From Thermoplasmata archaeon (GTDB lineage Archaea > Thermoplasmatota > Thermoplasmata > Lutacidiplasmatales > UBA184), in contig JBOGRS010000001.1 in the NCBI GenBank assembly GCA_050749685.1, positions 1,920 through 65,919 on the forward strand: a DNA stretch of 64,000 nt, in the 5' to 3' direction. This document shows, one piece after another, positions 3,080 through 53,033 of the stretch. The notes under the pieces are model-generated. The model searched no databases, had not been told where the DNA came from, and saw only the letters and a program-made list of their open reading frames with translations. The first letter of the stretch is position 1. Each line of letters opens with the position of its first letter. Made by a program: the position numbers and the translations under genes.

Positions 3080-3241
3080 ATGGGAAAGGGAACACCGGCA
3101 CGACGCGGCGGAAAGATCGTCCACGTGATCTGCCGCCGGTGCGGCAAGCACTCCTACCATCGTCAGAAGGGCGTCTGCGCGTCCTGCGGCTTCGGTGACA
3201 CGGCGCGTCGCCGCGGCTTCAGCTGGGCGAAGCTCAAGTAG
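3080..3241 (+). CDS. rpl37e: 50S ribosomal protein L37e
   Basis: Not in the ORF track (53 aa). ATG 3080, TAG 3239-3241. MGKGTPARRGGKIVHVICRRCGKHSYHRQKGVCASCGFG.. with the C4 zinc ribbon CRRCG..CASCG. Lies 21 nt after the Sm gene, the conserved archaeal Sm-L37e pair. Confidence 0.9.
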   Translation: MGKGTPARRGGKIVHVICRRCGKHSYHRQKGVCASCGFGDTARRRGFSWAKLK

Positions 3242-3818
3242 GCGGGGTCGCGGGACCCCGCGTCCACCCCGGGGGGCGGGGGCGGGAAACCCACGGGTTC
3301 GCGTCGAGCGCGAAGCGAAGCGTCCGGTCGCGGGCCTTGAGGATGCCGACCCGCGGCCCGAGGAGGGTCCTCTCGGCCCGCCGACGATGCCCGGCCGAGA
3401 TCGTCACCGGTCCCTCGATGAGGTCGGTCCCGTCGAGCGCGAGGGGGATGTGCAGCGCGCGGCACAGGCGTCCCGGACCGCTCGGGTCGTCGTCGAGCCC
3501 CGCGACGGGCTCGGCGGCGCGGAACAGGACCGCTTCGCCGCGTCGCGCCACCGCATTCGCGCAGACCACCTGGTGGATGCGGAACACGTAGAGCGTTCCG
3601 GGTCGCTCGAACATCGAACGGTTCCGCCGGGTCGGGCCGGCAAACGCGTGGCTCGCCGGATCCCTCCGGACATACGCCTCGGTCTCGACGACCCTCGCGA
3701 CCTTGCGACCGTGCGGGGTCCGGTGGGCGATGAGGGTCCCGAGAAGCGCGCGAGCGACCTGCCGCGCCGGCCGGTCGAAGAACGCCCGCGGGATCGCCCG
3801 GTACGCGGGATCGTCCAT
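3234..3818 (-). CDS. mpg: DNA-3-methyladenine glycosylase (AAG/Mpg family)
   Basis: Internal ATG 3818 (MDDPAYRAIPRAFF..) was chosen because the upstream part of the track ORF is Arg/Ser shadow. The core VVETEAYVRRDPASHAFAGPTRRNRSMFERPGTLYVFRIH matches the Mpg pattern (ETEAY..D.ASH..T.RN..MF..G..YVY). Confidence 0.8.
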   Translation of the reverse strand: MDDPAYRAIPRAFFDRPARQVARALLGTLIAHRTPHGRKVARVVETEAYVRRDPASHAFAGPTRRNRSMFERPGTLYVFRIHQVVCANAVARRGEAVLFRAAEPVAGLDDDPSGPGRLCRALHIPLALDGTDLIEGPVTISAGHRRRAERTLLGPRVGILKARDRTLRFALDANPWVSRPRPPGWTRGPATPPT

Positions 3819-3831
3819 GCGAGGTCGACCG

Positions 3832-4941
3832 CTACAGAAGGTGGCCGCGGTCGAGGAGCGGCGTCTCGTCGACCGCCACGGTCGCCTCGGCGAGGACGAT
3901 CCACGAGAGGAACGGACACCGATTCCGTCCGCCGTACGCGCGATTGTCGCCGACGGCGATCGTGACCGCACCCGCCTCCTGGTCCTCGACCTGGGGCAGA
4001 CCGGCGCCGATCTTCGGATTGAGCCCGATCGAAACGAGGCCGACGACATCCTTGCCCTTCGGCGCGTCGCGGTACGCGGTCTCGAAGGTCGGCTGGCCGT
4101 CGGTGTACCACGCGTTCGCGAGGTGGCCCGCATGCACCTCCCACTGGCCCCCTTCGACCCGGCCTCCGCGCAGGTAGCTCGGACGGTTCGCGACCGCGAT
4201 CCCCTCGGCGCTCGCCTCGTCGATCGCCACGATCACCGTCCCCGGAGGGGACGTCGTGAGGTTGTGGCCGAGGTCCAGGTCGGAACGGTCGATGACGCCA
4301 TCCTCGACGGTCGGGGTGCGCTGGCGGAGCTTCGCGCGGACCTCGCTACCGTTCGCGGCGGTGATGTGGAGCCGGTGCCCGCTCTTGAGGCGCTGGGCGA
4401 CGCCGCGGGCCTGGCGCTGGATCTCGGCGAAATCGACCTCGACCGTGGCCCGTAGGAGGCCCTGCCTCCACTCCGGGCCCCGTACGCCCCAGAACTCCGC
4501 CTGCGGGTCGGAGGCATAACCCAGCATGCTACGCACCCCGCGCAGGCGCGCCGACTTGGCACGGCGGTACCACTCCGCGTTGTACGTCGTGAGCGCGCTG
4601 CGATGCGTCGGAGGAAGCTGGTGGAAGCGAGGACGGTCCTCCGGTCCGGGGAAGAAGACGTAGGCGTGGGTCTTCCCGAGGGCGCCCCACTCGTGGCCGC
4701 CCACGCGGCTCCACCGTCCGACGGCCGGGGCGACGTCCAGGCTGCGCCAGTACGCGGCCTCGTCCTCGACGAGGAGCATCGGGTGGGCGCCCCGCCGACG
4801 CGCCTCCACGACGCATGCGGTCGAGTACGGGAGCGAATGGGTCCACGTCTCGATGATGACGTTCTCGCCGCGCCGCACATTGAGCTCCGGGCCGAGCAGG
4901 ACCTTCGCGAGCTCGGCGGGGCCCGGGGCGTCGGACGGCAT
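3832..4941 (-). CDS. M29-family (AmpS/PepS-like) aminopeptidase
   Basis: 369 aa, ATG 4941. The N-terminus LNVRRGENVIIETWTHSLPYSTACVVEARRRGAHPMLLVED and the C-terminal Gly-rich metal-site region (AVGDNRAYGG) resemble the aminopeptidase T / COG2309 layout. Confidence 0.6.
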   Translation of the reverse strand: MPSDAPGPAELAKVLLGPELNVRRGENVIIETWTHSLPYSTACVVEARRRGAHPMLLVEDEAAYWRSLDVAPAVGRWSRVGGHEWGALGKTHAYVFFPGPEDRPRFHQLPPTHRSALTTYNAEWYRRAKSARLRGVRSMLGYASDPQAEFWGVRGPEWRQGLLRATVEVDFAEIQRQARGVAQRLKSGHRLHITAANGSEVRAKLRQRTPTVEDGVIDRSDLDLGHNLTTSPPGTVIVAIDEASAEGIAVANRPSYLRGGRVEGGQWEVHAGHLANAWYTDGQPTFETAYRDAPKGKDVVGLVSIGLNPKIGAGLPQVEDQEAGAVTIAVGDNRAYGGRNRCPFLSWIVLAEATVAVDETPLLDRGHLL

Positions 4942-4965: not shown

Positions 4966-6324
4966 TTAAACCTTCGACCGCCGCCCCGACGCGCCCTCGC
5001 AAAGGCCCGTCACGGACCCGGGCGGACGGTGGCGCACGCGCCCGACGAGCACGGTCGACCGGCCCAGGCGCGGCAGCGCCCGCACGACCTCCGCGAGGAG
5101 CTCTTCACCCCGGTCGAACGGTGGCGGATATCCGAGCGACGGGATCCCCCGCGGGAACGACCTCGCCCACCCGGGATCGCCGACGGCGCGATGCACCACC
5201 TCGCTGACGCGGCGCAACCGCGCCACGTCCGAGAGGTCGCGGCGCAGGGCGCGGTCGACCCGGAGCCGGGCCCACGCGGCGAGCAGCCGATCGAGCTTCT
5301 CCGGCCGGTGACGTCGTGTACGACGCCCCGTGCCCATCGCCCCATTGAAGTAGAGGAACGGTCCGCCGAGGTCGAGGGCCTCGAGCAGCGTACGGCTCCC
5401 CGTCACGATCCGAACCTCGGCGCGCACGAAACGACGCCGCCACATGGCCGGCGGGCTTCGCCCGATGGTCTCCCATCGGGGGTGGCCGTTCGCGCCCGTC
5501 GGGGGCGGACCCCCCCCGCGCACGACGAGACGCGTCCGAGGTGCGTCACGGTCGAGCGCCGCGGCGATCGCCGCGAGCAGTCGCGAGGCGCTCGACGCGC
5601 TCACCCGGGCGACCCATGCGCCGGGACGCGTGGGGGACGGGGGGCGCGCCGGCCCCGCCGCGCGTACGGCGCGGGGGTAGACGATCGGACCGACCTGGAC
5701 CGCGTTCGGGAACTCGCGGGCGAATGCCCGGGAGGGGAGGAAGGACGCGTGGAGGTGCAGGACGTTCGAGACCCCGTAGCCGCGGAAGCGAACGTAGTCG
5801 TGGTGGAAGCGGGCCACCTCGGCGTCGAGTTCCCCGCGCGCCAGGCGGCGTCGGACGACCCGGGTCGCGACCCCGCCCTCCCGGTAGCGCTCGAAGGTCT
5901 GCTGGCGGCTCGTGAGGGTGCGCGCGAACTCCTCGAGGCTGAGGTGCAGCGTTCGATCCCGACCGTAGGCCGATTCCACGAGGCCCGACTCCGTCGCCCA
6001 GGTTCCGGCCCTGCCGAGAGGACCTCGGCGCTCGGGGGCGGAGGTGACGCCCCAGGACGGGCTCACGGTGACGGCCCACGGCGAGGAGCGCGCGGGACGG
6101 TCGACGCGGACGATCCTCGGCCAGTCCCACGGTCCGTCGACGTCGCGGGGGAGCGGCCGCCCCCGCGCGCGGAAGAGGAAGAGGCTCTGCCCGTCGACCG
6201 CCAGCCGTCGCCCTACGGTGAGCACCTCCTCGATGTCCCCCAGCCCTCCGCCCAGTACCGCCGGGAACAGGTAGACATCGACCGGTCGTTCCGTGGGGCC
6301 GGTAGGCGGGATCGCGCTAGGCAT
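4966..6324 (-). CDS. uncharacterised 452-aa protein, weak GT-B glycosyltransferase-like signature
   Basis: ATG 6324 overlaps the upstream GNAT stop (6317-6319) by 8 nt. Composition is ordinary. N-terminal VDVYLFPAVLGGGLGDIEEV and C-terminal IVTGSRTLLEALDLGGPFLYF resemble the two half-site motifs of GT-B enzymes. The function is not established. Confidence 0.55.
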   Translation of the reverse strand: MPSAIPPTGPTERPVDVYLFPAVLGGGLGDIEEVLTVGRRLAVDGQSLFLFRARGRPLPRDVDGPWDWPRIVRVDRPARSSPWAVTVSPSWGVTSAPERRGPLGRAGTWATESGLVESAYGRDRTLHLSLEEFARTLTSRQQTFERYREGGVATRVVRRRLARGELDAEVARFHHDYVRFRGYGVSNVLHLHASFLPSRAFAREFPNAVQVGPIVYPRAVRAAGPARPPSPTRPGAWVARVSASSASRLLAAIAAALDRDAPRTRLVVRGGGPPPTGANGHPRWETIGRSPPAMWRRRFVRAEVRIVTGSRTLLEALDLGGPFLYFNGAMGTGRRTRRHRPEKLDRLLAAWARLRVDRALRRDLSDVARLRRVSEVVHRAVGDPGWARSFPRGIPSLGYPPPFDRGEELLAEVVRALPRLGRSTVLVGRVRHRPPGSVTGLCEGASGRRSKV

Positions 6325-7261
6325 GAAGAGGATGGTAGAGCGTGTCGACCCGGTAGGCGCTCGAGAATCCAGCGCGTTCGAGCAGCTCGAGGGCGGCCGG
6401 AAGGTGATCCGGCACCTCCGTCACCACCCGCGCGGCGCCGCGGCCGGCGATCCACGCGAGGGCATGGCGCACGAGCGCGCCTGCCTCCGGCGAAGGGACG
6501 GCGGGACCCAGGACCGGCGCGGTCAGGTTCGCCGACGCCATCGCGCGGCTCACCGTCGCCCGCAGGAAGGCGGTCGGGCCCGACCCGTCGTCCAGGACCC
6601 ATGCCCTCGATTCGGAGCCGAGCGCCCGCAGGAGAGCGGGCGGCAGGCGGAACTGGCCGGCGTCGACCGGCAGGACCTCGGCGATGCGGGGGGGAAGGGT
6701 GCGTTCGGCGACGGCGCGAAGCGCCACGGCGTCCTCGCGCCGGAAGTCGCGCAACGAACGAGGTTGCGCGTCGTCGGCCCCGGTCGCGGGAGGTCCGATC
6801 GGGCGGAGGAACACGGTGTGGGACCTCAGCGGGAGATACCCCTCCGACGCGTAGAGCGCGCGGGCCGGCGCGTTCTCCGTGAGCACGTCGAGGAGCGCGT
6901 AGGCGCGACCGGCGTCGCGGGACTCCGCGTGGGCACGGCGGAGCAGTCGACGGGCGAACCCGCGTCGACGGAACGGTGGGTCGACGGCGACCCCGCTCAC
7001 GTAACCGGCGCGCTGCGTGAACGTGAGCAGCGTCGTGGCCACCACGCGGTGGTCGACCTCGATGACGAAGAAGCGCGCGATCGGCCGTCGGAGCGCCCGC
7101 GCGACCGCGAGGAGGATCCGAACGTCCCATCGGAAGAGCCGACGCACGAGACGCTCCATCGCGACCGGGTCGGTGCCGAGGATCTTGTCCTCCTCGGGAA
7201 AGTGGGCCTTCAGGAACTCGAGGTAGCGGGGCGCGTCCTTCGGACGGAAGTCCCTCAGCAT
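6317..7261 (-). CDS. GNAT-family N-acetyltransferase (two GNAT-like halves)
   Basis: Internal ATG 7261 (MLRDFRPKDAPRYLEF..) was chosen. Acetyl-CoA motif VAVDPPFRRRGFARRLLRRA. The start overlaps the HEAT gene stop (7255-7257) by 7 nt. Confidence 0.7.
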   Translation of the reverse strand: MLRDFRPKDAPRYLEFLKAHFPEEDKILGTDPVAMERLVRRLFRWDVRILLAVARALRRPIARFFVIEVDHRVVATTLLTFTQRAGYVSGVAVDPPFRRRGFARRLLRRAHAESRDAGRAYALLDVLTENAPARALYASEGYLPLRSHTVFLRPIGPPATGADDAQPRSLRDFRREDAVALRAVAERTLPPRIAEVLPVDAGQFRLPPALLRALGSESRAWVLDDGSGPTAFLRATVSRAMASANLTAPVLGPAVPSPEAGALVRHALAWIAGRGAARVVTEVPDHLPAALELLERAGFSSAYRVDTLYHPLHA

Positions 7262-8739
7262 CCGATCTCGTCCTCGTCGGCCGACGCCGGGAGCGCCGTT
7301 TCGAAGAGGAGACGCAGGGTGGGCGGGGTCCCGCCCTTGGGGGTCTCGGGCTCGGGGAGGCGGGCGAGGCGCTCGAGGTCGTCCTCGGTGACGCGGGCGC
7401 GCGCCTCGAGGATCGCCCGGGCGACGAACGGGTCGAACTCCCCCTGCCCTAGGCGGCCCAACGCCTGGATGATCGTGTCGAAGAGTCGTCCCTCGGCGTC
7501 GCTCAGGAGGCGGACCGCCCCCTCCCCCTCCGCGATCATCCGGTGCTCGCCCCGGGACGGATGCACCTGGCGGAGGAGCGCGACGAGCCCCTCGCGCGCG
7601 CCGTCGTCCCGAAGGCGTCCGAGCGCCCAGGCCGCGGCGAGACGGACCTCGGCGATCGGGTGGCGGAGCTCCTCGCGGATCCGCGGCGCCGCCTCGGTCA
7701 TGTCGAGGAGTCCGAGCGCGTAGATCGCCCCGCGCCGGGGCCACGGGTGAGGATCCTCGAGAACGCCCAAGAGGGCGGCGAGGTCGTCGGCGCCGCCGAC
7801 CCGGCCGAGGCAGTCCGTCGCCGCACCGCGCACCGACCAGAGCGGGTCGCTGAGCGCCTCCACGGCGACGGGGTGGCCTTCGGGCGCCCCCAGGTCGCCG
7901 ATCGCATGGAGCGCGCAGACGCGCATCCATCCTCGGTCGTCCGCCGCGTGACGGATCACCGCGGGCACGGCACGTCGATCCCCGATCCTCCCGAGCGCGA
8001 TCAGGATCGCCGGCTTGCCCCAGTTCTCCTCCTTCTCGAGACGCTCGAGGAGCGTCGGCACCGACCCTCCGTCCTTGAGCGTTCCCAGGACGACCGCCGT
8101 GGCGATGCGCACGCGACGGGAGGGGTCGTCAAGGAGCGGGCGGATGAGGTCGGGTACCGAGGGGTCGCCGCTGCGGCCGAGCCCGAACGTCGCCTCGCGT
8201 CGTACGCGGTCGTTCGGGTCCGCGAGCGCCATCACGAGGGCGGGCGTGGACGCGGGATGGGGCCATCGACCGAACGCCGCGAGGGCGGCCCGCCGGACGT
8301 TCGCGTCGGCATCGTGCAGGAGCGGGGCGAGGGCGGGGCGCGAACGCGCGTCGCCCACCGTCCAGAGGGACCAGGCCGCGTGCTCGCGCACGCGCTCGCT
8401 CGCGTCCCCGAGGGCATGCTCGAGCGGTTCGCGACTCTCCCGCCGTCCGATCCCGCCCAGCGCCTCCGCGGCGCTCGAGCGGACGTTCGCGTCCGGGTCG
8501 TGCAGGGAGGCCTCGAGCGCGCTGCGACCGCGCGCGTCCTTGCGGCGGCCCAGCGCGACGGCCGCGGCCTGGCGGAGGCGCGCGTCCGGGTCGGCGAGCG
8601 CGACCAGCAGGGTCTCGGGATCCCCGGCCGACCCTTCCTCGACGAGGGAACGGATCTCGGCGAGCCGCGTCTCCACGCTGCGCCGGTCCCGGTGCGCGAA
8701 CGGCGGGACCTTCCTCCCGCGTCGGAGCCGAGAGACCAC
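7255..8739 (-). CDS. HEAT-repeat (PBS-lyase HEAT-like) protein
   Basis: 494 aa, GTG 8739. About a dozen tandem ~31-aa units of the form L.DPD..VR..AA.ALG..GD. Confidence 0.8.
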   Translation of the reverse strand: MVSRLRRGRKVPPFAHRDRRSVETRLAEIRSLVEEGSAGDPETLLVALADPDARLRQAAAVALGRRKDARGRSALEASLHDPDANVRSSAAEALGGIGRRESREPLEHALGDASERVREHAAWSLWTVGDARSRPALAPLLHDADANVRRAALAAFGRWPHPASTPALVMALADPNDRVRREATFGLGRSGDPSVPDLIRPLLDDPSRRVRIATAVVLGTLKDGGSVPTLLERLEKEENWGKPAILIALGRIGDRRAVPAVIRHAADDRGWMRVCALHAIGDLGAPEGHPVAVEALSDPLWSVRGAATDCLGRVGGADDLAALLGVLEDPHPWPRRGAIYALGLLDMTEAAPRIREELRHPIAEVRLAAAWALGRLRDDGAREGLVALLRQVHPSRGEHRMIAEGEGAVRLLSDAEGRLFDTIIQALGRLGQGEFDPFVARAILEARARVTEDDLERLARLPEPETPKGGTPPTLRLLFETALPASADEDEIGC

Positions 8740-8761: not shown

Positions 8762-11146
8762 TCAAAAGGGGGCGCCCACGACGCTCCCCTCCGCGGCCCG
8801 AAGGGCGGCCGCCCGCCGCTCCTTCGCGTCGCTCCCCCCGCGGCCCGGGAGGTCCCCGAGCGCGCGCTGCCCGACGGACTCCGCCGCGCGGTAGCGATCG
8901 CGCTCGGGCGCCTCCACGGGGGCGTGCCACCGCACCAGGAGCTCGGTGCGGCGGACGCCGAGCGGGCCCAGGAAGGTCTCGGCCGTCCGGGCGAGGAGGT
9001 CGAGGTAGGCGGCGACGTCGTACTCCTCGTCGCCGTCGAGCGCCTCGGCGACCTTCACCCGGTGGCGCCACGACCGGGACGACCGGTCGGTGACCAGGTA
9101 GCGGACCGTCTCGCCGGCGGAGCGCGCGGCCCCCCCGTCGGCGAGCTGACGAAGCGCCGCGACGGTATCGGTGAACGTCACGAACGCATCGAGCGGCTGG
9201 GCGATGCGGTGGGCGATCAGCAGCTCCCCGCGCGGCCACGACCCCTCGGCGAGGCGCGCGGCGAACAGGTCCGCGCGCGCGAGCACCCGCGGGAGCGCGC
9301 GCCGCACGCCGTCGGCGTCGCGCGCCTTCGCGAAGAGGTCGAGGAGCTCGCGCTCGAACCCCCGCACGATCCCCGGGGTGTCGTGGCGGCGCGACCCCAC
9401 GCCGCGCAGCTTGTAGGCGCCGCTCTCGTAGAGCCCGTAGTACCGGTTCGGGACGCCCAGACCGTGGGTGACGGCGGGGAGGAAGACGATCCAGCGGTAG
9501 CGTCCCTCGTAGCCGAGCGGCAGGTCGAACTCGCGACCGACCGCCGCCGCGAGCTCCTCGGGCGCGTCGGCCGCGGCGTCGCCCGCGCGCGTGAGCCAGA
9601 GGGAGTCGACGATCCCGTGGACGACGCGGTAGCCGGACGCCTCGACGCGGCGGACGAGGCGGGCGATGAGGTCACGGGCGTAGGCGTTGATCGCCTCGTG
9701 GCACTCGATCCGTCCGAAGCGCGCGTTGCGGTAGCCCTGATACCCGAACGCGGTCACGAGGATCCACTTCAGCATCTTGACCCGACGCTGGAGCCGCGCC
9801 TTCTCCTCGGAAGGACACCCGGGCGCCGCCATGCGCGCCTTGTACGCCATCCGCCGTGCGAGCAGGGGCGCGAGCGTGCGGGGGATGAGCCCCACCCGGC
9901 GCTCGCACGATCGATAGCCCAGCTCCGGCGCCACGCGCCGGCTCGCCGGGCAGCACCGGCACTCGAGCGTCTCCGTCGAGAGGTTGTGGCGCACCATGAT
10001 GTGCGGATACAGGCTCGCGAAGTCGAACTCCTCGACGTGGTCGAAGACCCCCACCGGCGGCAGGAAGATCACCCCGCCGCGGTCGGCCGCGACGAGGTGG
10101 CGCGCCGAACGGAACTCCTCGGCACGGTTCTTCTTCCACGGGATGTGCACGCCGTCGGCGAGCGCGTGGGCCATCTCCATCGCGGTGAACGCGGTGCCCG
10201 GCGACTGGCGGACGATCGTCTGGAGGGAGAGGCGGGAGAGGCGCGCGGCGTCCACGAGTCCCTCCACGTCGGTGTCGTCGAACAGGAAGGAGTTCTCGCG
10301 GTCGATGTGGAAACGTCCGGGGAGGGGGAACGCCGCATCGCTGTGGAGGACGCGCCCGTACGTCGCGAAGGAACGGGCCGCGCGCGCCGGCCGGAACGAC
10401 GCCGGCTCCCGGCCCAGATGGAACTCCGCCTCGGTCAGCCCCACGGCGCGGGCGCGGCGGTAGAGCCAGGGGAGGTCGAACCCGTCCCCGCCCTGGGTGA
10501 AGAGGATGTCCGGGTCCTGCCGGTCGATCTCGCGAACGACCTCGACGAGGAGCCCCACCTCCCCACCCTCGAGGACGGCGTTCCCGACTCGCACGCGAGC
10601 GATCGCCCCGTCGGCGGGTGGGAGACGGCCCCTCCGATGGCCGGCGAGGCCGACCTCGAGCGGGGCGAGGACGAGGGGAGGGGGGGCGTAGTCGATCGTC
10701 TCCGCGGGCTCGGTCGCGACCGGCTCCCCCGCCACCCACCGTACGGGGGCGAACGGGTAGAGCCCGTGCCCGAGGTGGTAGAGCTGCGGCGCGGAGAGGT
10801 CCACGTCATAGAGCGTCAGGCGATGGTAGTCGCCGAGCGCGTCCACGGCGTGGGCGACCCGACGCCGGTCCGAGTTGCGCCGCGCGGTGACCGCGAGCAG
10901 GTGACGACGGCGTCGGTCGAAGAGCGACGGGCGGCCGGTCCACGGCGTGACCGACGCGACGCCGGGGACCGACGGGAGCGCCCGCGCGACCTCGGCGAGG
11001 AGGTCGCGGGGGCCGTCGACCAGGATCGGAGGGCGGAAGGGGCGGCGCTCGGGCCGGACGTGGCCGCTCGCCGCGTCCTTCACCCAGAGGACGACGTCAC
11101 GGCCGTCGCGATCGTCGGTGATGTCGAGCAGCCAGCCGTCGGGCAT
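8762..11146 (-). CDS. polB: family B DNA polymerase, divergent (exonuclease motifs degenerate, variant motif C; PolB2-like)
   Basis: 794 aa, ATG 11146. ExoII-like GGDGFDLPWLYRRA; motif A EFDFASLYPHIMVRHN; motif B-like KMLKWILVTAFGYQGYRNARF; motif C region VVHGIVDSLWL; downstream YKLRGVGSRRHDTPGIV (KxY/RRD region). The ExoI position reads VLAPLEVGL, with no DxE aspartate. Confidence 0.85.
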   Translation of the reverse strand: MPDGWLLDITDDRDGRDVVLWVKDAASGHVRPERRPFRPPILVDGPRDLLAEVARALPSVPGVASVTPWTGRPSLFDRRRRHLLAVTARRNSDRRRVAHAVDALGDYHRLTLYDVDLSAPQLYHLGHGLYPFAPVRWVAGEPVATEPAETIDYAPPPLVLAPLEVGLAGHRRGRLPPADGAIARVRVGNAVLEGGEVGLLVEVVREIDRQDPDILFTQGGDGFDLPWLYRRARAVGLTEAEFHLGREPASFRPARAARSFATYGRVLHSDAAFPLPGRFHIDRENSFLFDDTDVEGLVDAARLSRLSLQTIVRQSPGTAFTAMEMAHALADGVHIPWKKNRAEEFRSARHLVAADRGGVIFLPPVGVFDHVEEFDFASLYPHIMVRHNLSTETLECRCCPASRRVAPELGYRSCERRVGLIPRTLAPLLARRMAYKARMAAPGCPSEEKARLQRRVKMLKWILVTAFGYQGYRNARFGRIECHEAINAYARDLIARLVRRVEASGYRVVHGIVDSLWLTRAGDAAADAPEELAAAVGREFDLPLGYEGRYRWIVFLPAVTHGLGVPNRYYGLYESGAYKLRGVGSRRHDTPGIVRGFERELLDLFAKARDADGVRRALPRVLARADLFAARLAEGSWPRGELLIAHRIAQPLDAFVTFTDTVAALRQLADGGAARSAGETVRYLVTDRSSRSWRHRVKVAEALDGDEEYDVAAYLDLLARTAETFLGPLGVRRTELLVRWHAPVEAPERDRYRAAESVGQRALGDLPGRGGSDAKERRAAALRAAEGSVVGAPF

Positions 11147-11175
11147 CGTGCTCCGGTCCCGTCGAGGGGAGCGCG

Positions 11176-11418
11176 TCAGGCCGGACGCCCGGAGGACGGA
11201 CGGTCCGAGGGAGGCTCGGGCGACGCCCGGGGGTCGGTCGCGGCCATCCGACGGGCGAGGTCGAGCAGGACGGAGAGCAGGATCGACTCGAGCAGGTCCG
11301 GGCTCCCGACGTACGTCGCCTGGGCGGCGTAACGGCGCGCCCCCGTCTGGATCGCGCGGAACGCCGCGCGCTCCTCGGGCGTCGTGAGGAGGCGACCGAA
11401 CGCGTCCCAGCGTTTCAT
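11176..11418 (-). CDS. small helical hypothetical protein (80 aa)
   Basis: ATG 11418 overlaps the TGA of the upstream RecA-like gene (ATGA at 11415-11418). It ends 29 nt before the polB ATG. MKRWDAFGRLLTTPEERAAFRAIQTGARRYAAQATYVGSPDLLESILLSVLLDLARRM.. An in-frame GTG at 11463 is an alternative start. Confidence 0.5.
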   Translation of the reverse strand: MKRWDAFGRLLTTPEERAAFRAIQTGARRYAAQATYVGSPDLLESILLSVLLDLARRMAATDPRASPEPPSDRPSSGRPA

Positions 11419-12308
11419 CCTCTCCTCGAGCGCCTGGCGGTACGTCGGAACGGTGCGGCCCACGTCGTCACCTCCTCGGACCCGGTGTCCGTGAACTCCT
11501 CGAGCCCGCGCTGGCCGGGGGAGCGCAGGACGACCGTGAGGCGGCTGCCGTCCCGGTATCCCTCGAGGCGGAGTCCGTCCGCGTGGGGGGCGAGGCGGAC
11601 GAGGTCGAACCAGCGCGGCCCGTGCTCCTTGAGACCGGGGAAGCGGGAGAACCCACCGGTGACCGCGAGGAGGAGCGGGCAACGGGCGGCGCGCGCGACC
11701 TCGCCGAGCGTCCGGGCGACGTGGCGGAGGAGAGGGGCCCGCTCCTCCTCGGGGACCTCGTCGGTCAGGAAGAGCGTCGACGGTTCGTGGGCGACGAGCA
11801 GGCTCGGGCGACGCCGTCGCACCTCGTCCGACCAGGCGTCGACCAGCGCGACCAGTTGGTAGGCCGTGAACGCCCGGGCGAGACGGATGCGGGCGAGCAC
11901 CCGCTCCGGGTCCAGACCGAGGGCGCGGCCGGTCTCCCCGACACGGTAGGGATGGAACCGGTTCGTCCCCTCGAGAAGGGAGACCTTCCCGCCGGCGCGC
12001 ACGCTCGCCGCATAGACGAGCTCGAGGAGCGGCTCGGTCGCCGACGGAGGGCCGACCCAGAGCGTCGCCTCCCCCGGGCTGAAGCGACGATCGAGCCAGT
12101 CGAAGAGCGGAGGGGCGGAGGGGAGGACGTGACGCGATCCCGTGCGTCGTGCCACCCTTTCCCCCCGGAGCCGAGGGACGGCGCGGGGGGGCCGCTCGAC
12201 GGCGGTGAGCCATGCGTCCACGGACGGGGAAAGGATCCCCTCCTCGGCGATCGCCGGCGTCGCCGGGGTCGGCGGGTCGGACGCGAGCGTCATCGTAGCC
12301 TCCCCCAC
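11415..12308 (-). CDS. RecA/RadB-fold protein with degenerate Walker A (predicted non-ATPase)
   Basis: 297 aa. The layout parallels RadB/RecA cores: LFDWLDRRFSPGEATLWVGPPSATEPLLELVYA (P-loop position reads GPPSATEP, no GK[ST]), KVSLLEGTNRFHPYRVGETGRALGLDPERVLARIRLARAFTAYQ, then Walker-B-like SLLVAHEPSTLFL. GTG 12308 or ATG 12293 could be the start. CTTAAG TATA-like box at 12327-12332. Confidence 0.6.
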   Translation of the reverse strand: MGEATMTLASDPPTPATPAIAEEGILSPSVDAWLTAVERPPRAVPRLRGERVARRTGSRHVLPSAPPLFDWLDRRFSPGEATLWVGPPSATEPLLELVYAASVRAGGKVSLLEGTNRFHPYRVGETGRALGLDPERVLARIRLARAFTAYQLVALVDAWSDEVRRRRPSLLVAHEPSTLFLTDEVPEEERAPLLRHVARTLGEVARAARCPLLLAVTGGFSRFPGLKEHGPRWFDLVRLAPHADGLRLEGYRDGSRLTVVLRSPGQRGLEEFTDTGSEEVTTWAAPFRRTARRSRRG

Positions 12309-12404
12309 GGGAACGCGGGGTGCCGCCCTTAAGGGGGGTGACGGGGGAGGCGGAAACGGGTCGGGGGGCTCGCGTTTCCGCGCCCTTCCAACCCGCGTCC
12401 GGCA

Positions 12405-12629
12405 CTAGGTCGGACGAAGTTTCTCGAGCGCCTCGGGGTCGCTGAGGTAGAGCTCGGCGTGGCCGCACTTGCGGCACACGTGCGCCTCGAAGCGGCCGAC
12501 GCTCGAGATCTCGCCCCAGCGCAGGGCGAGAAAGGCGGTGCCGGTGATGCCCCCTCCGGTCATGACGCGGACGACGCGGCGGACATCCTCGCTGCCACAG
12601 GCCGGGCAGGGGCGAACGGTCGCGGGCAT
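12405..12629 (-). CDS. small zinc-ribbon protein (74 aa)
   Basis: Internal ATG 12629 (MPATVRPCPACGSED..FEAHVCRKCGHAELYL). Two CxxC pairs separated by ~40 aa. The upstream part of the track ORF is Arg/Pro shadow. Confidence 0.55.
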   Translation of the reverse strand: MPATVRPCPACGSEDVRRVVRVMTGGGITGTAFLALRWGEISSVGRFEAHVCRKCGHAELYLSDPEALEKLRPT

Positions 12630-12700: not shown

Positions 12701-13267
12701 CTACCGGGCGAGGGAGGGCGTCCGCCCGCCGGGAGCGAGCCCGACGAGCTCGAGGATCTCGTCGTGCGAGCGCGCGAAGTCGCGCCGCGGCGTCGCGGCC
12801 ACGTCGACGAACTGGAGCTCGGTCCACGCGGGATGTCGCGGCGCCTGCGCGGTCGCCGCCGTACCTCGGAAGAGGAACTGGAGGTCCCAGTGGTACCGTT
12901 TCTCCGGGAAGCGTCGGGGCGGGTAGACCTCCGATGCGATGCGGACCGGCTCGAGGATGGCGCGGATCCCTCCCACCTGCTCGGTAAGGATCCGTTGCGC
13001 CGCCGCTTCCGGTCCTTCGCCGAGCAGGAGCTGGGAGGACGGGAGCATCCATCCGTGCCGGTGGGCCTCGACGCGCTCCGGGCCGAGACCCCCCAGATGG
13101 TCCCACGGAGCGGCGGGGTTCATCCGTCCGGCGAGGACGTGATCGGGCTCCCCCGGCGGGGAGAGGACGAGGAAGGAGGAAAGGCAGATCCCATCCTCGG
13201 GGATCGCAAGGACGCTGAACGGCTCGGTTCCTCGTGTGAACCGGCAGAAGACGCGCTGGGTCGCCAT
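12701..13267 (-). CDS. NUDIX-fold protein with degenerate Nudix box
   Basis: Internal ATG 13267 (MATQRVFCRF..). The segment LLLGEGPEAAAQRILTEQVGG aligns to the Nudix box Gx5Ex7REuxEExGu, but with RI and EQ in place of RE and EE. Confidence 0.45.
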   Translation of the reverse strand: MATQRVFCRFTRGTEPFSVLAIPEDGICLSSFLVLSPPGEPDHVLAGRMNPAAPWDHLGGLGPERVEAHRHGWMLPSSQLLLGEGPEAAAQRILTEQVGGIRAILEPVRIASEVYPPRRFPEKRYHWDLQFLFRGTAATAQAPRHPAWTELQFVDVAATPRRDFARSHDEILELVGLAPGGRTPSLAR

Positions 13268-13422: not shown

Positions 13423-13626
13423 GTGCCGATGTGCCCGACCTGCGGGAAGCCGATGTCACCGGGCTTCCTCGGTTCGGAGAGCTTCATCGGCGGATCGAAA
13501 TGGTTCCTCGAACGCACGCGACTCGCCTTCGGCGGCGAGGAAGTGGCCAAGCCCAACACGTTCGGGATGGTCTACATCGCCGGCTTCCGCTGCCGGGAGT
13601 GCCGGACCCTCCAACTCCAGTACTGA
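13423..13626 (+). CDS. small zinc-ribbon protein (67 aa)
   Basis: MCPTCGKPM...FRCRECRTLQLQY. Same CxxC...CxxC architecture as 12405-12629. GTG 13423 or ATG 13429 could be the start. Confidence 0.55.
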   Translation: MPMCPTCGKPMSPGFLGSESFIGGSKWFLERTRLAFGGEEVAKPNTFGMVYIAGFRCRECRTLQLQY

Positions 13627-13652: not shown

Positions 13653-14417
13653 TCAGTCCAGGCGCGACGCTCCCGGGGGCGGGGGGAGGTCGAGATGCTC
13701 GACCATCCAGCGGCAGTTCGCGACGGCGTCGCCCCGGAAGTGGTTGTTGAAGAACCCGTAGACCGTCGGCACCTCGCCCGAGAGCCGCGTGAGACGCTCG
13801 ACCCAGGGAAGGAGTTCCTTCTCGGAGTAGAGATAATCGTACCAGATGGGCCGGCCGTGGCCGTGCCACCGCACGTAGGTGAACGACGCCGTCGTCTCGA
13901 GGTGCGTCGGAAGGTGGGGTTCGTCGACGATCACGTAGGCGAGACCATGATCGCGCAAGAGCGCGTACGACGCGTCGCACATCCACGATCGTTCGCGGAA
14001 CTCGACGGCGACGGGAAGGTCGCGGGGGAGCGTCGCGTAGAACGCTCGGACCGTCGCGGGCTCGAACGGGAGCGACGGCGGAAGCTGGAGGAGCGCGGCG
14101 GCGAACTTCCCCGCGTCCTGGAGCGGCTTGACCACCTGGAGGAACTGGTGGAGCTCGGTCTCCGCGCCCACGAGGCGGCGTTCGTGCGTGATCGTCTGGG
14201 GGAACTTGGCGGCGAAGCGGAACCCGGCCGGGGTCCGTCGCGCCCATGACGTCGCGACGGAGGGGGAAGGGAGACGATAGAACGTCGAGTTCACCTCGAC
14301 GATCGGAAAGACCTTCGCGTAGTAGCGCAGCCGATCCGCGACCCCATGGGGCGGGTAGAACCGGCCGACCCACTCCGGGTAATCCCACCCGCTCGTTCCG
14401 AGGAGGAGCTCGCCCAC
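13653..14417 (-). CDS. DUF72 (UPF0759) family protein
   Basis: 254 aa, GTG 14417. LLLGTSGWDYPEWVGRFYP, VEVNSTFYRLP, FRFAAKFPQ.ITH and VAVEFRERSW are typical DUF72 strands. Confidence 0.8.
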   Translation of the reverse strand: MGELLLGTSGWDYPEWVGRFYPPHGVADRLRYYAKVFPIVEVNSTFYRLPSPSVATSWARRTPAGFRFAAKFPQTITHERRLVGAETELHQFLQVVKPLQDAGKFAAALLQLPPSLPFEPATVRAFYATLPRDLPVAVEFRERSWMCDASYALLRDHGLAYVIVDEPHLPTHLETTASFTYVRWHGHGRPIWYDYLYSEKELLPWVERLTRLSGEVPTVYGFFNNHFRGDAVANCRWMVEHLDLPPPPGASRLD

Positions 14418-29852: not shown

Positions 29853-30155
29853 CCGCCGAGAATCGGCACGCGCGCGTCCCACGGGCGACGAACGACGCAC
29901 GCTCGGACCAAGCGCACTTATAGCCCGACGCGCTACGCGCGCCTCGGAGGGTTCGCGACGGGTGTCCGGAGCGACCGCGCCAGCATTCTTCAGGGCATTC
30001 CCGCACGGAGAAACGGCCTCCTATCGGGGGCGTTTCATCCGCCGCGAGGGCGGTCCTTAAGTTGGGGCGCGCTCGTGTACGGCCGACGGAACGACGTCCC
30101 ATCGTGACCGATACCCCGAGACGGCGGACCGTCCAAGCACAGGAGTGATCCATCC

Positions 30156-39294: not shown

Positions 39295-40221
39295 TCAGGG
39301 CCGGGCGACTCTTAACGCGTCGGGCCGGACGCGACGCCGTCGCACGGGGCGGAGCCGGAGGTGGAACGGCAGCGCCCGGGCGGAGTGGGTGAGTGCTCCG
39401 AGGCTGGCCGCGTCGGCGCCGCTGGTGCGGTACCGACCGACCGACTCGGGGGTGATCCCGCCCGAGACCTCGACCCAGACGCCCTTGCGGCGGCCGTGGG
39501 CTTCGAGGTCCCGGAGGATCCCTCGGACTTGGGCGGGAGGGGCGTTGTCGATGAGGAGCGCGTCGGCTCCGGCGCGGACCGCCGCGAGCGCGGAGCGCGC
39601 GTCCCGGACCTCCACCTGAAGGGACCGTGGGCGGCCGGCGCCGGCCTTCAGCCGCGCGACGGCGTCAGCGAGCGGAACGAGGGCGAGGTGGTTGTTCTTG
39701 AGGAGGAGGCCGTCGGAGAGATCCCGACGGTGGGGGTGGCCCCCTCCGTGGACGACCGCGGCCTTCTCGAGGTCGCGCAATCCCGGTAGGGTCTTGCGGG
39801 TCGCGTAGATCGCGAGGCGGTGGCCCGGCCCGCTCGCCCGTCGGACGGCGAGCGCGGTCGCGCTCGCGACGCCCGAGAGGTGCATGAGAAGGTTGAGGAG
39901 GGTGCGCTCCGCGGCCAGGATGGCGCGCGCGTCGCCGTCGATCCGAAGCACCGCTTGGCCGCGCCGTATCCGCTCGCCGTCCTGAGCGAGCGGCGTGACC
40001 GCGAGCCCGAGCGCCCGGGCGACGGCCGCCGCGACGGTCGACCCCGAGAGGACCCCCTCGTCCTGGGCGATGACGCGCGCGGTCGCGGGAACGGGTTCCG
40101 GGAGGAGGGCGCGCGTCGTGCGATCGCGGTGGGCACGATCCTCCGCCAGCGCGCGGCGGACGAGGCTCGTCCACCCGACCTCGGCCGTCGGGGTGGCGCT
40201 AGGAGGAGGTTTCGGTCGCAC
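39295..40221 (-). CDS. nadC: nicotinate-nucleotide pyrophosphorylase (carboxylating)
   Basis: 308 aa. AERTLLNLLMHLSGVA, TRKT.PGLR, EK.AV..GGG..HR..L.D..L.K.NH, EVSGGIT. Confidence 0.85.
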   Translation of the reverse strand: MRPKPPPSATPTAEVGWTSLVRRALAEDRAHRDRTTRALLPEPVPATARVIAQDEGVLSGSTVAAAVARALGLAVTPLAQDGERIRRGQAVLRIDGDARAILAAERTLLNLLMHLSGVASATALAVRRASGPGHRLAIYATRKTLPGLRDLEKAAVVHGGGHPHRRDLSDGLLLKNNHLALVPLADAVARLKAGAGRPRSLQVEVRDARSALAAVRAGADALLIDNAPPAQVRGILRDLEAHGRRKGVWVEVSGGITPESVGRYRTSGADAASLGALTHSARALPFHLRLRPVRRRRVRPDALRVARP

Positions 40222-49496: not shown

Positions 49497-49604
49497 CGGG
49501 CTTGCTGGGAGTGTCGCGTCGCCGGGCGCCGGCCCGCCGACGTTTCGAACCCAGGTCTTTGGCTTCGAAGGCCAAAAGGATAGTCCAGACTACCCTACAA
49601 GCCC
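49497..49604 (-). tRNA. tRNA-Arg (anticodon UCG) with 33-nt insertion in the T-loop (candidate non-canonical intron)
   Basis: Minus strand 49604->49497: GGGCTTG-TA-GGGT-AGTCTGGACT-ATCC-TT-TTGGC-CTTCGAA-GCCAA-AGAC-CTGGG-TTCGAA[insert 49543..49511]T-CCCAG-CAAGCCC-G. Acceptor stem 7/7, D stem 4/4 (one GU), anticodon stem 5/5. The T stem is 5/5 only after the insert is removed. U8, A14, GG18-19, U33 and TTC54-56 all fit. No encoded CCA. Confidence 0.7.
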
Positions 49605-53003: not shown

Positions 53004-53027
53004 GCTCGACCGAGTCGCTCCCCTTCG

Positions 53028-53033
53028 CTTAAA
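53028..53033 (-). promoter_or_regulatory. TATA-like box (TTTAAG on minus strand) for DP2
   Basis: 25-30 nt upstream of GTG 53003, which is leaderless geometry. Confidence 0.4.

What the first reader, a model, noticed from the sequence alone, without database searches (positions are those of the whole stretch)
8762..12308. Degenerate-exonuclease PolB chained to a Walker-A-less RecA-fold protein and an 80-aa protein: candidate archaeal 'mutasome-like' cassette
Seen in sequence: three consecutive minus-strand genes are tightly linked. The RecA-like stop overlaps the small ORF's start (ATGA at 11415-11418), and the small ORF ends 29 nt before the polB ATG at 11146. A CTTAAG box upstream of 12308 suggests a dedicated promoter.
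The polymerase keeps motif A (DFASLYPH), a Lys-containing motif B (KMLKWILVTAFGYQGY) and one Asp in motif C. However, motif C reads HGIVDSL rather than the usual Y-x-DTDS. The ExoI position reads LAPLEV, so the DxE Asp is missing, and I could not find an ExoIII Y-x3-D.
The first gene has RadB/RecA-like topology, but the P-loop position reads GPPSATEP (no Gly-Lys-Ser/Thr) and the Walker-B strand reads LLVAHEPS.
Established knowledge: archaea carry a divergent PolB2/Dpo2 group with disrupted motifs, and the Sulfolobus member is implicated in damage tolerance. Bacteria use imuA (RecA-like) - imuB - dnaE2 cassettes for induced mutagenesis.
Inference: this could be an analogous archaeal module, in which a non-catalytic RecA-fold adaptor and a small subunit recruit a proofreading-deficient B-family polymerase. 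I do not know whether this three-gene linkage has been described.
Basis: partly seen in the sequence, partly recalled or inferred. Interest (0 to 1): 0.75.

Follow-up and report, generated by a model that had tools for sequence, protein, structure and literature searches.

The report
Known archaeal PolB2 mutasome operon

Summary
The cassette is real. It is the iRadA–PPB2–PolB2 operon first described by Makarova et al. (2013/2014) and modelled as a "PolB2 mutasome" by Timinskas et al. (2025). That paper's dataset already lists Thermoplasmata operons of this gene order, with DUF72 upstream and an IVD motif C.

The window comes from a Thermoplasmata MAG. All family hallmarks tested here are present:
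- PolB2 has motif C H-G-I-V-D, the D(K/R) motif (D355-R356) preceded by an FxxA-type motif, and no conserved exonuclease carboxylates.
- The RadA-fold protein has its Walker A and B motifs destroyed, has no N-terminal domain, and carries a C-terminal PIP-like QRGLEEF.
- The small protein carries the diagnostic N-terminal MGRT arm.

One correction: the small gene starts at GTG 11463, giving 95 aa and a 49-nt overlap with iRadA. It does not start at the ATG of the "ATGA" overlap.

The gene order is conserved in 79/79 related species loci and in most loci of distant PolB2 relatives.

Two points are possibly new. In addition, a HEAT–GNAT–unknown gene array follows PolB2 throughout this lineage.

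The parts
12353..12378 (-). Inverted repeat GAAAC-N16-GTTTC upstream of the operon. It is a candidate binding site for a dimeric regulator.
   Evidence: 2 matches in the window, 0.21 expected. G[AG]AAC-N15-18-GTTTC lies at a fixed distance from the TATA-like box in 56/74 related loci, against 1 background hit in 1.52 Mb. Function is inferred.
12328..12333 (-). TATA-like box CTTAAG (CTTTAGA in most relatives), 19 nt downstream of GTTTC and about 37 nt upstream of ATG 12293.
   Evidence: GTTTC-N18-20-CTTWAG occurs exactly once, on the coding strand just upstream of iRadA (with one exception, L014), in 60 of 80 related species loci.
11415..12293 (-). iRadA: catalytically inactive RadA/Rad51-fold protein, 292 aa. 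The alternative GTG start at 12308 would give 297 aa.
   Evidence: Pfam Rad51 27.7 bits (cut-off 22). AF2 core residues 55-260 have pLDDT >90, and both tails are disordered. The best PDB fold matches are RadA/Rad51/Dmc1 cores, E 3e-11, TM 0.65-0.72. The 100%-identical public protein is 292 aa.
12030..12053 (-). iRadA Walker A position, GPPSATEP (residues 81-88): there is no Gly-Lys-Ser/Thr.
   Evidence: Alignment A2. No Lys is conserved at this position in 28 relatives.
11784..11801 (-). iRadA Walker B position, LLVAHE (residues 165-170): the Asp is replaced by the invariant His169.
   Evidence: Alignment A2.
11493..11513 (-). iRadA C-terminal PIP-box-like motif QRGLEEF (residues 261-267), lying where the ordered core gives way to the disordered tail.
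   Evidence: Q261 and G263 are invariant and F267 is at least 90% conserved. The tail is disordered. Timinskas 2025 lists an analogous motif, QSHLEAFG, in a Thermoplasmata iRadA. PCNA binding itself is inferred.
11176..11463 (-). PPB2 (arCOG07300 / Pfam DUF8156), 95 aa, GTG start, overlapping the iRadA 3' end by 49 nt.
   Evidence: The GGAGG Shine-Dalgarno sequence is at 11473-11477.
11437..11463 (-). PPB2 N-terminal arm M-G-R-T-V-P-T-Y-R (MGRT motif, Arg3 and Arg9).
   Evidence: G2, R3, T4, P6, T7, Y8 and R9 are invariant in A1. The motif is described in PMC11791011.
8762..11146 (-). PolB2: B-family DNA polymerase of the PolB2/Dpo2 group, 794 aa.
   Evidence: NCBIfam NF004418 E 1e-125. Pfam DNA_pol_B. 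AF2 pLDDT 76.8. Full-length fold match to archaeal PolB, E 1.6e-36.
10646..10675 (-). ExoI-equivalent strand LVLAPLEVGL (residues 158-167): no conserved Asp or Glu.
   Evidence: The columns vary within the lineage and across 31 diverse relatives.
10463..10498 (-). ExoII-equivalent segment TQGGDGFDLPWL (residues 217-228): D224 is kept here but is not conserved across the family.
10103..10114 (-). F345-R-S-A348, an FxxA-type (Rad51/RadA oligomerisation-like) motif just before D(K/R).
   Evidence: F/W/Y in 26/31 and A/G in 24/31. The region 338-361 has pLDDT <50 in the monomer model. Its role in binding iRadA is taken from the PMC11791011 model and was not tested here.
10079..10084 (-). D355-R356, the PolB2-specific D(K/R) motif.
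   Evidence: D in 31/31 and R/K in 31/31. The motif is defined in PMC7544198. It lies 157 residues before motif C, against 148 in S. islandicus.
10001..10024 (-). Polymerase motif A, DFASLYPH (residues 375-382).
   Evidence: D375 is invariant.
9731..9778 (-). Polymerase motif B, KMLKWILVTAFGYQGY (residues 457-472).
9602..9619 (-). Polymerase motif C, HGIVDS (residues 510-515): the first Asp is replaced by Ile, D514 is kept, and the PolB2-typical His510 is present.
   Evidence: H 31/31, I 30/31 and D 31/31.
13653..14417 (-). DUF72 protein, a known enriched neighbour of polB2 operons.
   Evidence: Pfam DUF72 E 6e-68. It lies upstream on the same strand in most related loci. Enrichment is reported in PMC11791011.
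7255..8676 (-). HEAT-repeat protein (473 aa), 85 nt downstream of PolB2. This is a lineage-specific conserved neighbour, and whether it belongs to the operon is uncertain.
   Evidence: 63 related loci. It is absent from distant PolB2 loci.
30010..30061 (+). Second and only other copy of the promoter module (GAAAC-N17-GTTTC-N19-CTTAAG), about 95 nt upstream of the class II ribonucleotide reductase gene (30156-32930, +).
   Evidence: 0 of 100 shuffles give 2 matches. RNR identified by Pfam. Co-regulation is inferred.

Best explanation
This is a chromosomal iRadA-PPB2-PolB2 operon (a "PolB2 mutasome") of an uncultured Thermoplasmata archaeon.

Shown here:
- The three genes are tightly coupled. 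iRadA and PPB2 overlap by 49 nt, and a 29-nt gap separates PPB2 from PolB2. Each gene has its own Shine-Dalgarno sequence.
- They sit behind a conserved promoter made of a TATA-like CTTAAG box with an upstream GAAAC-N16-GTTTC repeat.
- All three proteins carry the hallmarks of their families.

Inferred from the family (AlphaFold models by Timinskas 2025; biochemistry and genetics in Sulfolobus):
- PolB2 is the catalytic subunit. It keeps the motif A Asp, the motif B Lys and the second motif C Asp, so it polymerises, but it cannot proofread.
- It extends mismatched or lesion-paired primer ends during damage tolerance.
- Its FxxA-type loop before D355-R356 docks onto the ATPase-dead RadA-fold protein in the way RadA subunits dock onto each other.
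- A PPB2 trimer inserts one MGRT arm into the cleft between PolB2 and iRadA, near the DNA.
- The disordered iRadA tail, carrying QRGLEEF, tethers the complex to PCNA.

Expression is probably induced by DNA damage or replication stress through a regulator that binds the inverted repeat. The same module precedes the ribonucleotide reductase gene.
For: Family assignment:
- PolB2: NCBIfam NF004418 at 1e-125 and a full-length PolB fold.
- PolB2 motifs: motif C H-G-I-V-D and D(K/R) at 355-356, conserved in 31/31 diverse relatives.
- Exonuclease: the catalytic carboxylates are not conserved.
- iRadA: RadA/Rad51 fold at E 3e-11, with both tails disordered. Walker A and B are lost.
- PPB2: 257 homologues, labelled DUF8156, with an invariant MGRTxPTYR N-terminus.

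Linkage:
- 79/79 related species loci have the same order, and 77/79 have the same 49-nt overlap.
- 47 of 80 loci of PolB2s at 30-68% identity show the full trio, and most of the remainder are cut off upstream.

Promoter.

Literature:
- Operon description.
- Heteropentamer model, MGRT arm, Rad51-like docking and PIP motifs in iRadA.
- Thermoplasmata operons of type 1a with DUF72 and IVD in that paper's dataset.
- Dpo2 is an active, exonuclease-free extender polymerase.
- Dpo2 induction is Orc1-2 dependent.
Against: - No complex was modelled here, because single-chain predictions were the only kind available. The stoichiometry and contacts therefore rest on the published models of other species.
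- All functional data come from Sulfolobales, whose PolB2 is shorter and distant.
- This organism is uncultured, so damage induction is untested.
- The PIP-like motif lacks the second aromatic residue and sits about 25 residues from the C-terminus.
- The last 16 residues of iRadA are constrained by the overlapping PPB2 frame, so their conservation says nothing about iRadA function.
- ExoII D224 is retained in this protein, so a residual nuclease activity cannot be formally excluded.
Confidence: 0.85

Rival explanations
1. The complex works mainly in recombination-associated DNA synthesis. As a RadA paralogue, iRadA would cap or dock onto RadA filaments and bring PolB2 to D-loops or stalled forks, rather than acting in classical lesion-bypass extension.
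For: iRadA keeps an intact RadA/Rad51 core fold. Its fold matches include RAD51-paralogue complexes that cap RAD51 filaments. Makarova 2014 proposed roles at stalled forks or in origin-independent initiation.
Against: In the published models the RadA-type docking groove of iRadA is occupied by the PolB2 FxxA-type loop, and PolB2 modelled poorly with active RadA. iRadA lacks the N-terminal domain and oligomerisation linker. Genetics in S. islandicus tie Dpo2 to targeted mutagenesis.
Confidence: 0.1
2. PolB2 is catalytically dead, and the trio is a structural or regulatory complex (the original 'inactivated polymerase' view).
For: The first motif C Asp and the exonuclease residues are lost. This was the view of Rogozin 2008 and Makarova 2014.
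Against: D375, K460, D514, H510 and D355 are invariant or nearly invariant across relatives at 28-67% identity, as expected for a working active site. Sulfolobus Dpo2 with the same I-x-D motif is a robust polymerase.
Confidence: 0.04
3. The adjacency is fortuitous, or the cassette is cargo of a mobile element (for example a self-replicating element with its own PolB).
For: Some divergent PolBs are carried by casposons and plasmids.
Against: GC content is uniform across the region. Flanking chromosomal synteny (DUF72 upstream, HEAT-GNAT downstream, A-type ATPase operon nearby) is conserved in dozens of species. No integrase or terminal repeats were seen nearby. The same trio occurs with PolB2s at 30-40% identity.
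Confidence: 0.01

Closest known systems
PolB2 (Dpo2) mutasome of Saccharolobus/Sulfolobus islandicus: PolB2 + iRadA + PPB2 (arCOG07300)
   Same: The three protein families are the same. Motif C has the same I-x-D substitution with a conserved His. The D(K/R) motif, the dead exonuclease, the Walker-less RadA-fold partner and the MGRT arm of the small subunit are all shared.
   Different: The gene order here is iRadA-PPB2-PolB2 (type 1a), one of several published variants. The order in S. islandicus was not checked here. PolB2 here is a full-size 794 aa protein that aligns over its whole length with ~775-aa archaeal PolBs, N-terminal and exonuclease regions included. This iRadA carries a PIP-like motif. 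No experimental data exist for this lineage.
Thermoplasmata type 1a PolB2 operons in the Timinskas 2025 dataset (e.g. Thermoplasmata archaeon M9B2D: SRAP-DUF72-iRadA-PPB2-PolB2, HGIVDSLWV, iRadA PIP QSHLEAFG)
   Same: The order is the same, DUF72 lies upstream, motif C is IVD, and iRadA has a Q-x-x-L-x-x-F motif.
   Different: No SRAP gene was seen next to DUF72 here. Small Nudix-like and zinc-ribbon genes lie between DUF72 and iRadA. The HEAT-GNAT array downstream and the promoter module are not mentioned in that paper.
E. coli Pol V mutasome (UmuD'2C-RecA-ATP)
   Same: The architecture is analogous: a polymerase docks on a RecA/Rad51-family protein through a filament-like motif, a small oligomeric subunit inserts an N-terminal arm, the clamp is used, and expression is damage-inducible.
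   Different: The polymerase is Y-family. The RecA is the active cellular protein and ATP is required. UmuD' is unrelated to PPB2 and is a dimer. The two polymerases are not homologous.
Bacterial ImuA-ImuB-DnaE2 cassette
   Same: It is a three-gene damage-tolerance cassette with a RecA-like non-recombinase protein and an error-prone replicative-family polymerase lacking proofreading (established knowledge, not tested here).
   Different: The polymerase is C-family, and the adaptor ImuB is an inactive Y-family protein. There is no PPB2 homologue. The analogy is functional only.
Replicative archaeal PolB3/PolB1 (e.g. Pyrococcus, Thermococcus PolB)
   Same: The overall fold is the same (E 1e-36, TM about 0.67-0.70), and motifs A and B are shared.
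   Different: Here the DTD motif is replaced by IVD and the ExoI/III carboxylates are lost. PolB2 also has the D(K/R) and FxxA insert and is linked in an operon with iRadA and PPB2.

Membership tests
PolB2 / Dpo2 group of B-family polymerases | B-family polymerase fold with motifs A and B intact | tested here: met
   Pfam DNA_pol_B 1.5e-18. PDB PolB 1e-38 by sequence and 1.6e-36 by fold. D375 is invariant and K460 is at least 90% conserved.
PolB2 / Dpo2 group of B-family polymerases | Motif C with the first Asp replaced by a hydrophobic residue, the second Asp kept, and a preceding conserved His (H-x-[ILM]-x-D) | tested here: met
   HGIVDS. H510 31/31, I512 30/31, D514 31/31. The feature is described.
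PolB2 / Dpo2 group of B-family polymerases | [quoted passage not shown] | tested here: met
   D355 31/31 and R/K356 31/31. The loop 338-361 has pLDDT <50. Defined.
PolB2 / Dpo2 group of B-family polymerases | Exonuclease domain without its active site | tested here: met
   No conserved acidic residue on the ExoI strand. The ExoII Asp varies. There is no YxxxD. HMMER could not align the ExoI strand to solved PolBs, so this rests on family conservation. Enzymatic inactivity was not tested.
PolB2 / Dpo2 group of B-family polymerases | Rad51/RadA oligomerisation-like beta-alpha motif before D(K/R) that binds iRadA | tested here: inconclusive
   A conserved E-x-F-[KR]-[ST]-[AG] (FxxA-type) sequence is present and is disordered in the monomer model. 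The contact itself needs a complex model.
PolB2 / Dpo2 group of B-family polymerases | Phylogenetic placement inside the PolB2 clade rather than PolB1/PolB3 | not tested
   No tree with labelled PolB1/B2/B3 references was built. Indirect support only: the NCBIfam 'type B' subfamilies score 420 and 349 bits, against at most 124 bits for the 'DNA polymerase I' models.
PolB2 operon (iRadA-PPB2-PolB2) | The three genes are adjacent, co-directional, and conserved across genomes | tested here: met
   79/79 related species loci. 47/80 diverse metagenome loci have the full trio, and most others are truncated upstream.
iRadA (inactivated RadA, arCOG07763/04294/08101) | RadA/Rad51 ATPase-core fold | tested here: met
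   Pfam Rad51 is above its cut-off. Foldseek finds RadA/Rad51/Dmc1 at E 3e-11, TM 0.65-0.72.
iRadA (inactivated RadA, arCOG07763/04294/08101) | ATPase residues (Walker A Lys/Thr, Walker B Asp) missing | tested here: met
   GPPSATEP and LLVAHE. No Lys is conserved, and His169 is invariant.
iRadA (inactivated RadA, arCOG07763/04294/08101) | No N-terminal helical (HhH) domain | tested here: met
   Residues 1-52 are variable, Pro-rich and have pLDDT <50.
iRadA (inactivated RadA, arCOG07763/04294/08101) | C-terminal PCNA-binding motif (present in many members, not all) | tested here: inconclusive
   A conserved GQRG[LMI]EEF fits Q-x-x-L-x-x-F and resembles the QSHLEAFG listed. Binding was not tested, and the second aromatic residue is absent.
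PPB2 (arCOG07300, Pfam DUF8156) | Small (~90 aa) protein with the conserved N-terminal MGRT arm and Arg3/Arg9 | tested here: met
   95 aa, starting MGRTVPTYR. These positions are invariant in A1. The precomputed label is PF26485 DUF8156. The local Pfam copy lacks this model.
PPB2 (arCOG07300, Pfam DUF8156) | Three-helix fold forming a trimer | not tested
Damage-inducible expression (as in Sulfolobales) | Transcript induction after DNA damage, Orc1-2 dependent | not testable with these tools
   Only a conserved promoter module with a GTTTC core was found. No orc1/cdc6 gene was found among the ORFs scanned, which covered only part of the 64-kb window.

The most novel reading that the evidence does not exclude
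The conserved module GAAAC-N16/17-GTTTC-N19-CTT(T/A)A(G/A) would be the operator-promoter of a previously undescribed DNA-damage or replication-stress regulon in this soil Thermoplasmata lineage. The regulon would couple the PolB2 mutasome operon to class II ribonucleotide reductase, and so to dNTP supply. The regulator is unknown. It could be an Orc1/Cdc6-type protein, as in Sulfolobus, whose damage-response element shares the GTTTC core. The co-directional HEAT-GNAT-unknown genes downstream of PolB2 could be lineage-specific extra members of the same transcription unit.
Probability: 0.35. Interest if true: 0.45.

Novelty: already known. Interest (0 to 1): 0.22.

Why it matters
The cassette itself adds no new biology. 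It is one more member of a family whose operon structure, predicted heteropentameric architecture and translesion-extender role are already published.

It is still useful in three ways:
1. The corrected PPB2 start (GTG 11463) shows why by-eye ORF calling misses the MGRT arm, which is the key element of that subunit.
2. The lineage offers a full-size PolB2 with a structurally complete but catalytically dead exonuclease domain, and an iRadA with a PIP-like tail. These could be convenient for biochemical reconstitution.
3. The shared promoter module on the polB2 operon and the RNR gene is a concrete, testable handle on DNA-damage regulation in Thermoplasmatota, where no such regulon is known.

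Tried and rejected
- Pfam scans of the 80-aa and 95-aa small protein found nothing. The local library lacks PF26485/DUF8156, so identification came from the homologue search and the precomputed labels.
- HMMER, with a single sequence or a profile, aligned only the ExoII region and the polymerase half to solved PolBs. The ExoI and ExoIII verdicts therefore rest on the lack of conserved carboxylates across family alignments, not on residue-by-residue superposition.
- I first considered 282-DR-283 (in GRFHIDR) and then 257/258 as the D(K/R) motif. Both were rejected: the residue after D282 is not conserved across the family, and the spacing to motif C does not fit. D355-R356 fits on conservation and on spacing.
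- I considered the HEAT-repeat protein as a general fourth subunit. This was rejected because it occurs only with the close Thermoplasmata relatives and not with PolB2s at 30-42% identity. It remains a lineage-specific neighbour.
- I tried to test whether the RNR promoter copy is conserved in relatives. No fetched locus contains RNR, and the genome and metagenome scan quotas were already used.
- Naming distant PolB2 representatives gave only 'DNA polymerase domain-containing protein' from Thermoplasmatota, Bathyarchaeia and Nitrososphaerota MAGs. This is not a labelled PolB2 reference, so no formal phylogeny was made.
- Rfam found no RNA family in the window.
- The mobile-element idea was rejected on uniform composition and conserved chromosomal synteny.

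Full report
**What is there**

The window is about 72% G+C. It is identical over this region to a contig of a Thermoplasmata archaeon MAG, GCA_974105305.1. On the minus strand lie three tightly packed genes:
- a 292-aa RecA-like gene at 11415-12293; a GTG at 12308 is an alternative start;
- a small gene;
- a 794-aa B-family polymerase at 8762-11146.

- ATGA is at 11418-11415.
- The small ORF's stop is at 11178-11176.
- A 29-nt gap separates it from the polB ATG at 11146.
- CTTAAG is at 12333-12328.

**Correction of the small gene**

The frame of the small ORF stays open upstream of the ATG. A GTG at 11463, preceded by GAGGAGG, gives a 95-aa protein beginning MGRTVPTYRQALEER.
- The homologue search found 257 relatives; the 120 listed are 81-97 aa long and are labelled PF26485 (DUF8156).
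- All sixteen that I aligned begin M/V-GRT-x-PTYRQALEER.
- In 80 species-representative genomes of the same lineage the start codon is ATG (36), GTG (42) or TTG (1), always behind GGAGGTGA.
- In those genomes it overlaps the upstream gene by exactly 49 nt in 77 of 79 cases.

The real gene is therefore 11176-11463. The "ATGA" coupling is an internal Met codon. This matters because the missing 15 residues are the most conserved and functionally central part of the protein (see below).

**The polymerase**

Family and fold:
- It matches Pfam DNA_pol_B.
- It matches NCBIfam's 'type B DNA-directed DNA polymerase' subfamilies much better (420 and 349 bits) than the PolB 'DNA polymerase I' equivalogs (124 bits or less).
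- Its AlphaFold2 model (pLDDT 76.8) superposes over its full length on Pyrococcus, Thermococcus and Pyrobaculum PolB structures (E 1.6e-36, TM about 0.67-0.70).

Conserved positions in alignments of 28 close and 31 diverse relatives, the latter down to 28% identity:
- The motif A Asp (D375) is invariant, and the motif B Lys (K460) is conserved in at least 90% of the 31 diverse relatives.
- Motif C reads H-G-I-V-D-S, with His510 and Asp514 invariant and the first Asp always I/L/M.

The exonuclease active site is degenerate:
- The ExoI strand (LVLAPLEVGL) has no conserved acidic residue.
- The ExoII Asp (D224) is kept in this protein but varies across the family.
- No Y-x3-D exists.

Two PolB2-specific features described in the literature are present:
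- The D(K/R) motif (Kazlauskas 2020) is D355-R356. D is found in 31/31 and R/K in 31/31. It lies 157 residues before motif C, against 148 in S. islandicus.
- It is preceded by a conserved E-x-F-[KR]-[ST]-[AG] stretch, an FxxA-type motif like the Rad51/RadA oligomerisation motif. This stretch lies in a loop (338-361) that is disordered in the monomer model.

**The RecA-like protein**

- It passes the Pfam Rad51 threshold.
- Its model has a confident core (residues 55-260, pLDDT >90) and disordered tails at 1-52 and 264-292.
- The best PDB fold matches are RadA, Rad51 and Dmc1 ATPase cores (E 3e-11, TM 0.65-0.72).
- The Walker A position reads GPPSATEP, with no Lys or Thr.
- The Walker B Asp is an invariant His.
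- There is no N-terminal helical domain.
- A conserved G-Q-R-G-[LMI]-E-E-F (residues 260-267) fits the PCNA-interacting Q-x-x-L-x-x-F pattern.
- The conservation of the last 16 residues is confounded by the overlapping PPB2 frame.

**Linkage**

- In 79 of 79 related species loci that contain all three genes, the order and strand are iRadA-PPB2-PolB2. Two of them have an insertion between PPB2 and PolB2.
- In 80 metagenome loci carrying PolB2s at 30-68% identity, 47 show the full trio and 11 show PPB2-PolB2. Most of the remainder are cut off within about 1 kb upstream.
- A DUF72 gene (13653-14417, E 6e-68) lies upstream on the same strand, here and in most relatives.

**Comparison with what is known**

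This is the published PolB2 operon.
- Makarova and Koonin (2013) and Makarova et al. (2014) described the association of PolB2 with arCOG07300 and inactivated RadA paralogues.
- Timinskas et al. (2025) renamed the partners PPB2 and iRadA and modelled a PolB2:iRadA:PPB2(3) heteropentamer. They described:
  - the MGRT arm of PPB2 inserted between PolB2 and iRadA;
  - the Rad51-like docking of the PolB2 loop preceding D(K/R);
  - clamp-binding motifs that occur mostly in iRadA;
  - enrichment of DUF72, SRAP and orc1/cdc6 nearby.
- Their supplementary table already lists Thermoplasmata operons of type '1a (iRadA-PPB2-PolB2)' with DUF72, HGIVDSLWV and an iRadA motif QSHLEAFG.
- Feng et al. (2022) showed that Sulfolobus Dpo2, which has the same I-x-D motif, is a robust, exonuclease-free polymerase specialised in extending mismatched or lesion-paired termini.
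- Sun et al. (2018) showed that its induction by damage depends on Orc1-2.

**Most likely mechanism**

Shown here:
- The operon anatomy.
- The conserved promoter.
- The family hallmarks in all three proteins.

Inferred by homology:
- Assembly of the heteropentamer.
- PCNA tethering through the iRadA tail.
- Proofreading-free extension of distorted primer ends during damage tolerance.
- Stress-induced expression.

Rival explanations are a role in recombination-coupled synthesis (about 0.1), a purely structural dead polymerase (about 0.04), and chance adjacency or mobile-element cargo (about 0.01).

**Promoter, and what may be new**

The CTTAAG box is part of a conserved module, G[AG]AAC-N15-18-GTTTC-N18-21-CTT[TA]A[AG].
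- The module is found upstream of iRadA in 56 of 74 related loci. The spacers are almost always 16-17 nt and 19 nt. There is a single background hit in 1.52 Mb.
- The shorter pattern GTTTC-N18-20-CTTWAG occurs exactly once in 60 of the 80 related loci. It is always on the coding strand and, with one exception (L014), sits just upstream of iRadA.
- In the 64-kb window the module occurs only twice, where none is expected by chance. The copies are at 12328-12378 and at 30010-30061. The second lies about 95 nt upstream of the class II ribonucleotide reductase gene.
- The GTTTC core resembles the Sulfolobus Orc1-2 element (A-N-T-T-T-C, consensus ...AGTTTC...). That is a resemblance, not a test.
- I could not check RNR promoters in other genomes.

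**Other neighbours**

- PolB2 is followed, after 85 nt, by a 473-aa HEAT-repeat protein, a GNAT acetyltransferase and a 452-aa unknown protein, with 7-8-nt overlaps between them.
- This array is conserved in about 50 relatives but is absent from distant PolB2 loci.
- In the window it continues with an M29-like peptidase and a methylpurine-DNA glycosylase.

**Verdict**

This is a real feature, correctly interpreted in outline. It is an ordinary member of an already described system, so interest is low. The residual interest lies in the shared promoter module.

Noticed in passing
window 30010-30061 (+), upstream of 30156-32930 (+): This is the only other copy in the window of the polB2-operon promoter module (GAAAC-N17-GTTTC-N19-CTTAAG). 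It sits about 95 nt upstream of a class II (B12-dependent) ribonucleotide reductase gene, which suggests co-regulation of dNTP supply with the PolB2 operon.
   Followed up: partly
window 7255-8676, 6317-7261, 4966-6324 (all -); L003-L082: A HEAT-repeat protein (473 aa), a GNAT acetyltransferase (314 aa) and an unknown 452-aa protein follow PolB2 co-directionally, with 7-8-nt overlaps between them. The array is conserved in about 50 related species but is not seen with distant PolB2s. It is not mentioned in the PolB2 mutasome paper. It may be an extended operon or merely lineage synteny.
   Followed up: partly
window 3234-3818 (-) and 3832-4941 (-): A methylpurine-DNA glycosylase (Pur_DNA_glyco, E 1e-42) and an M29-like peptidase continue the same co-directional gene array, about 5 kb downstream of PolB2. 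This places a base-excision repair enzyme in the same cluster.
   Followed up: no
PolB2 residues 255-270 (window ~10337-10384, -): A second loop has very low model confidence but strong conservation ([KR]-S-[YF]-x-x-Y-G; Y263 in 31/31 and G264 in 30/31 diverse relatives). It is probably another partner- or DNA-contact element. Its role is not explained by what I read.
   Followed up: partly
window 49659-53168 (-), 35175-36866 (+): The same 64-kb window also encodes the PolD large subunit DP2 (three DP2 Pfam domains, E down to 5e-128) and a family X DNA polymerase (HHH_8 plus the pol-beta thumb domain). Three different DNA polymerase families therefore lie within 45 kb.
   Followed up: no
window 12405-12629 (-), 12701-13267 (-), 13423-13626 (+): Small genes lie between DUF72 and the operon promoter: a 74-aa zinc-ribbon protein, a 188-aa weak Nudix-like protein, and a DUF6487 protein on the opposite strand. 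The zinc-ribbon gene is kept in only about 5 related loci, so it is probably not part of the system.
   Followed up: partly
representatives P0364, P0365, P0387, P0391, P0400, P0409, P0450, P0499: Several PolB2 relatives are about 1240-1310 aa long, and the match is split right after query residue ~467 (inside motif B). This is the pattern expected for an intein inserted in the polymerase gene.
   Followed up: no
L014 3724-3800; L051, L053: In a few relatives the operon is interrupted. In L014 the promoter module and an ATG lie about 1.5 kb upstream of the iRadA core. In L051 and L053, 1.3-kb and 3.4-kb insertions separate PPB2 from PolB2.
   Followed up: no
window 49530-49603 (-): ARAGORN calls a tRNA-Arg(TCG) here, but the Rfam gathering-threshold scan of the whole window returned no match at all, not even to the tRNA family.
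   Followed up: no
window 40199-42652 (-): An 817-aa STAND-like protein (AAA_16 ATPase plus MalT-like TPR region), probably a signal-transducing regulator. No link to the operon was examined.
   Followed up: no
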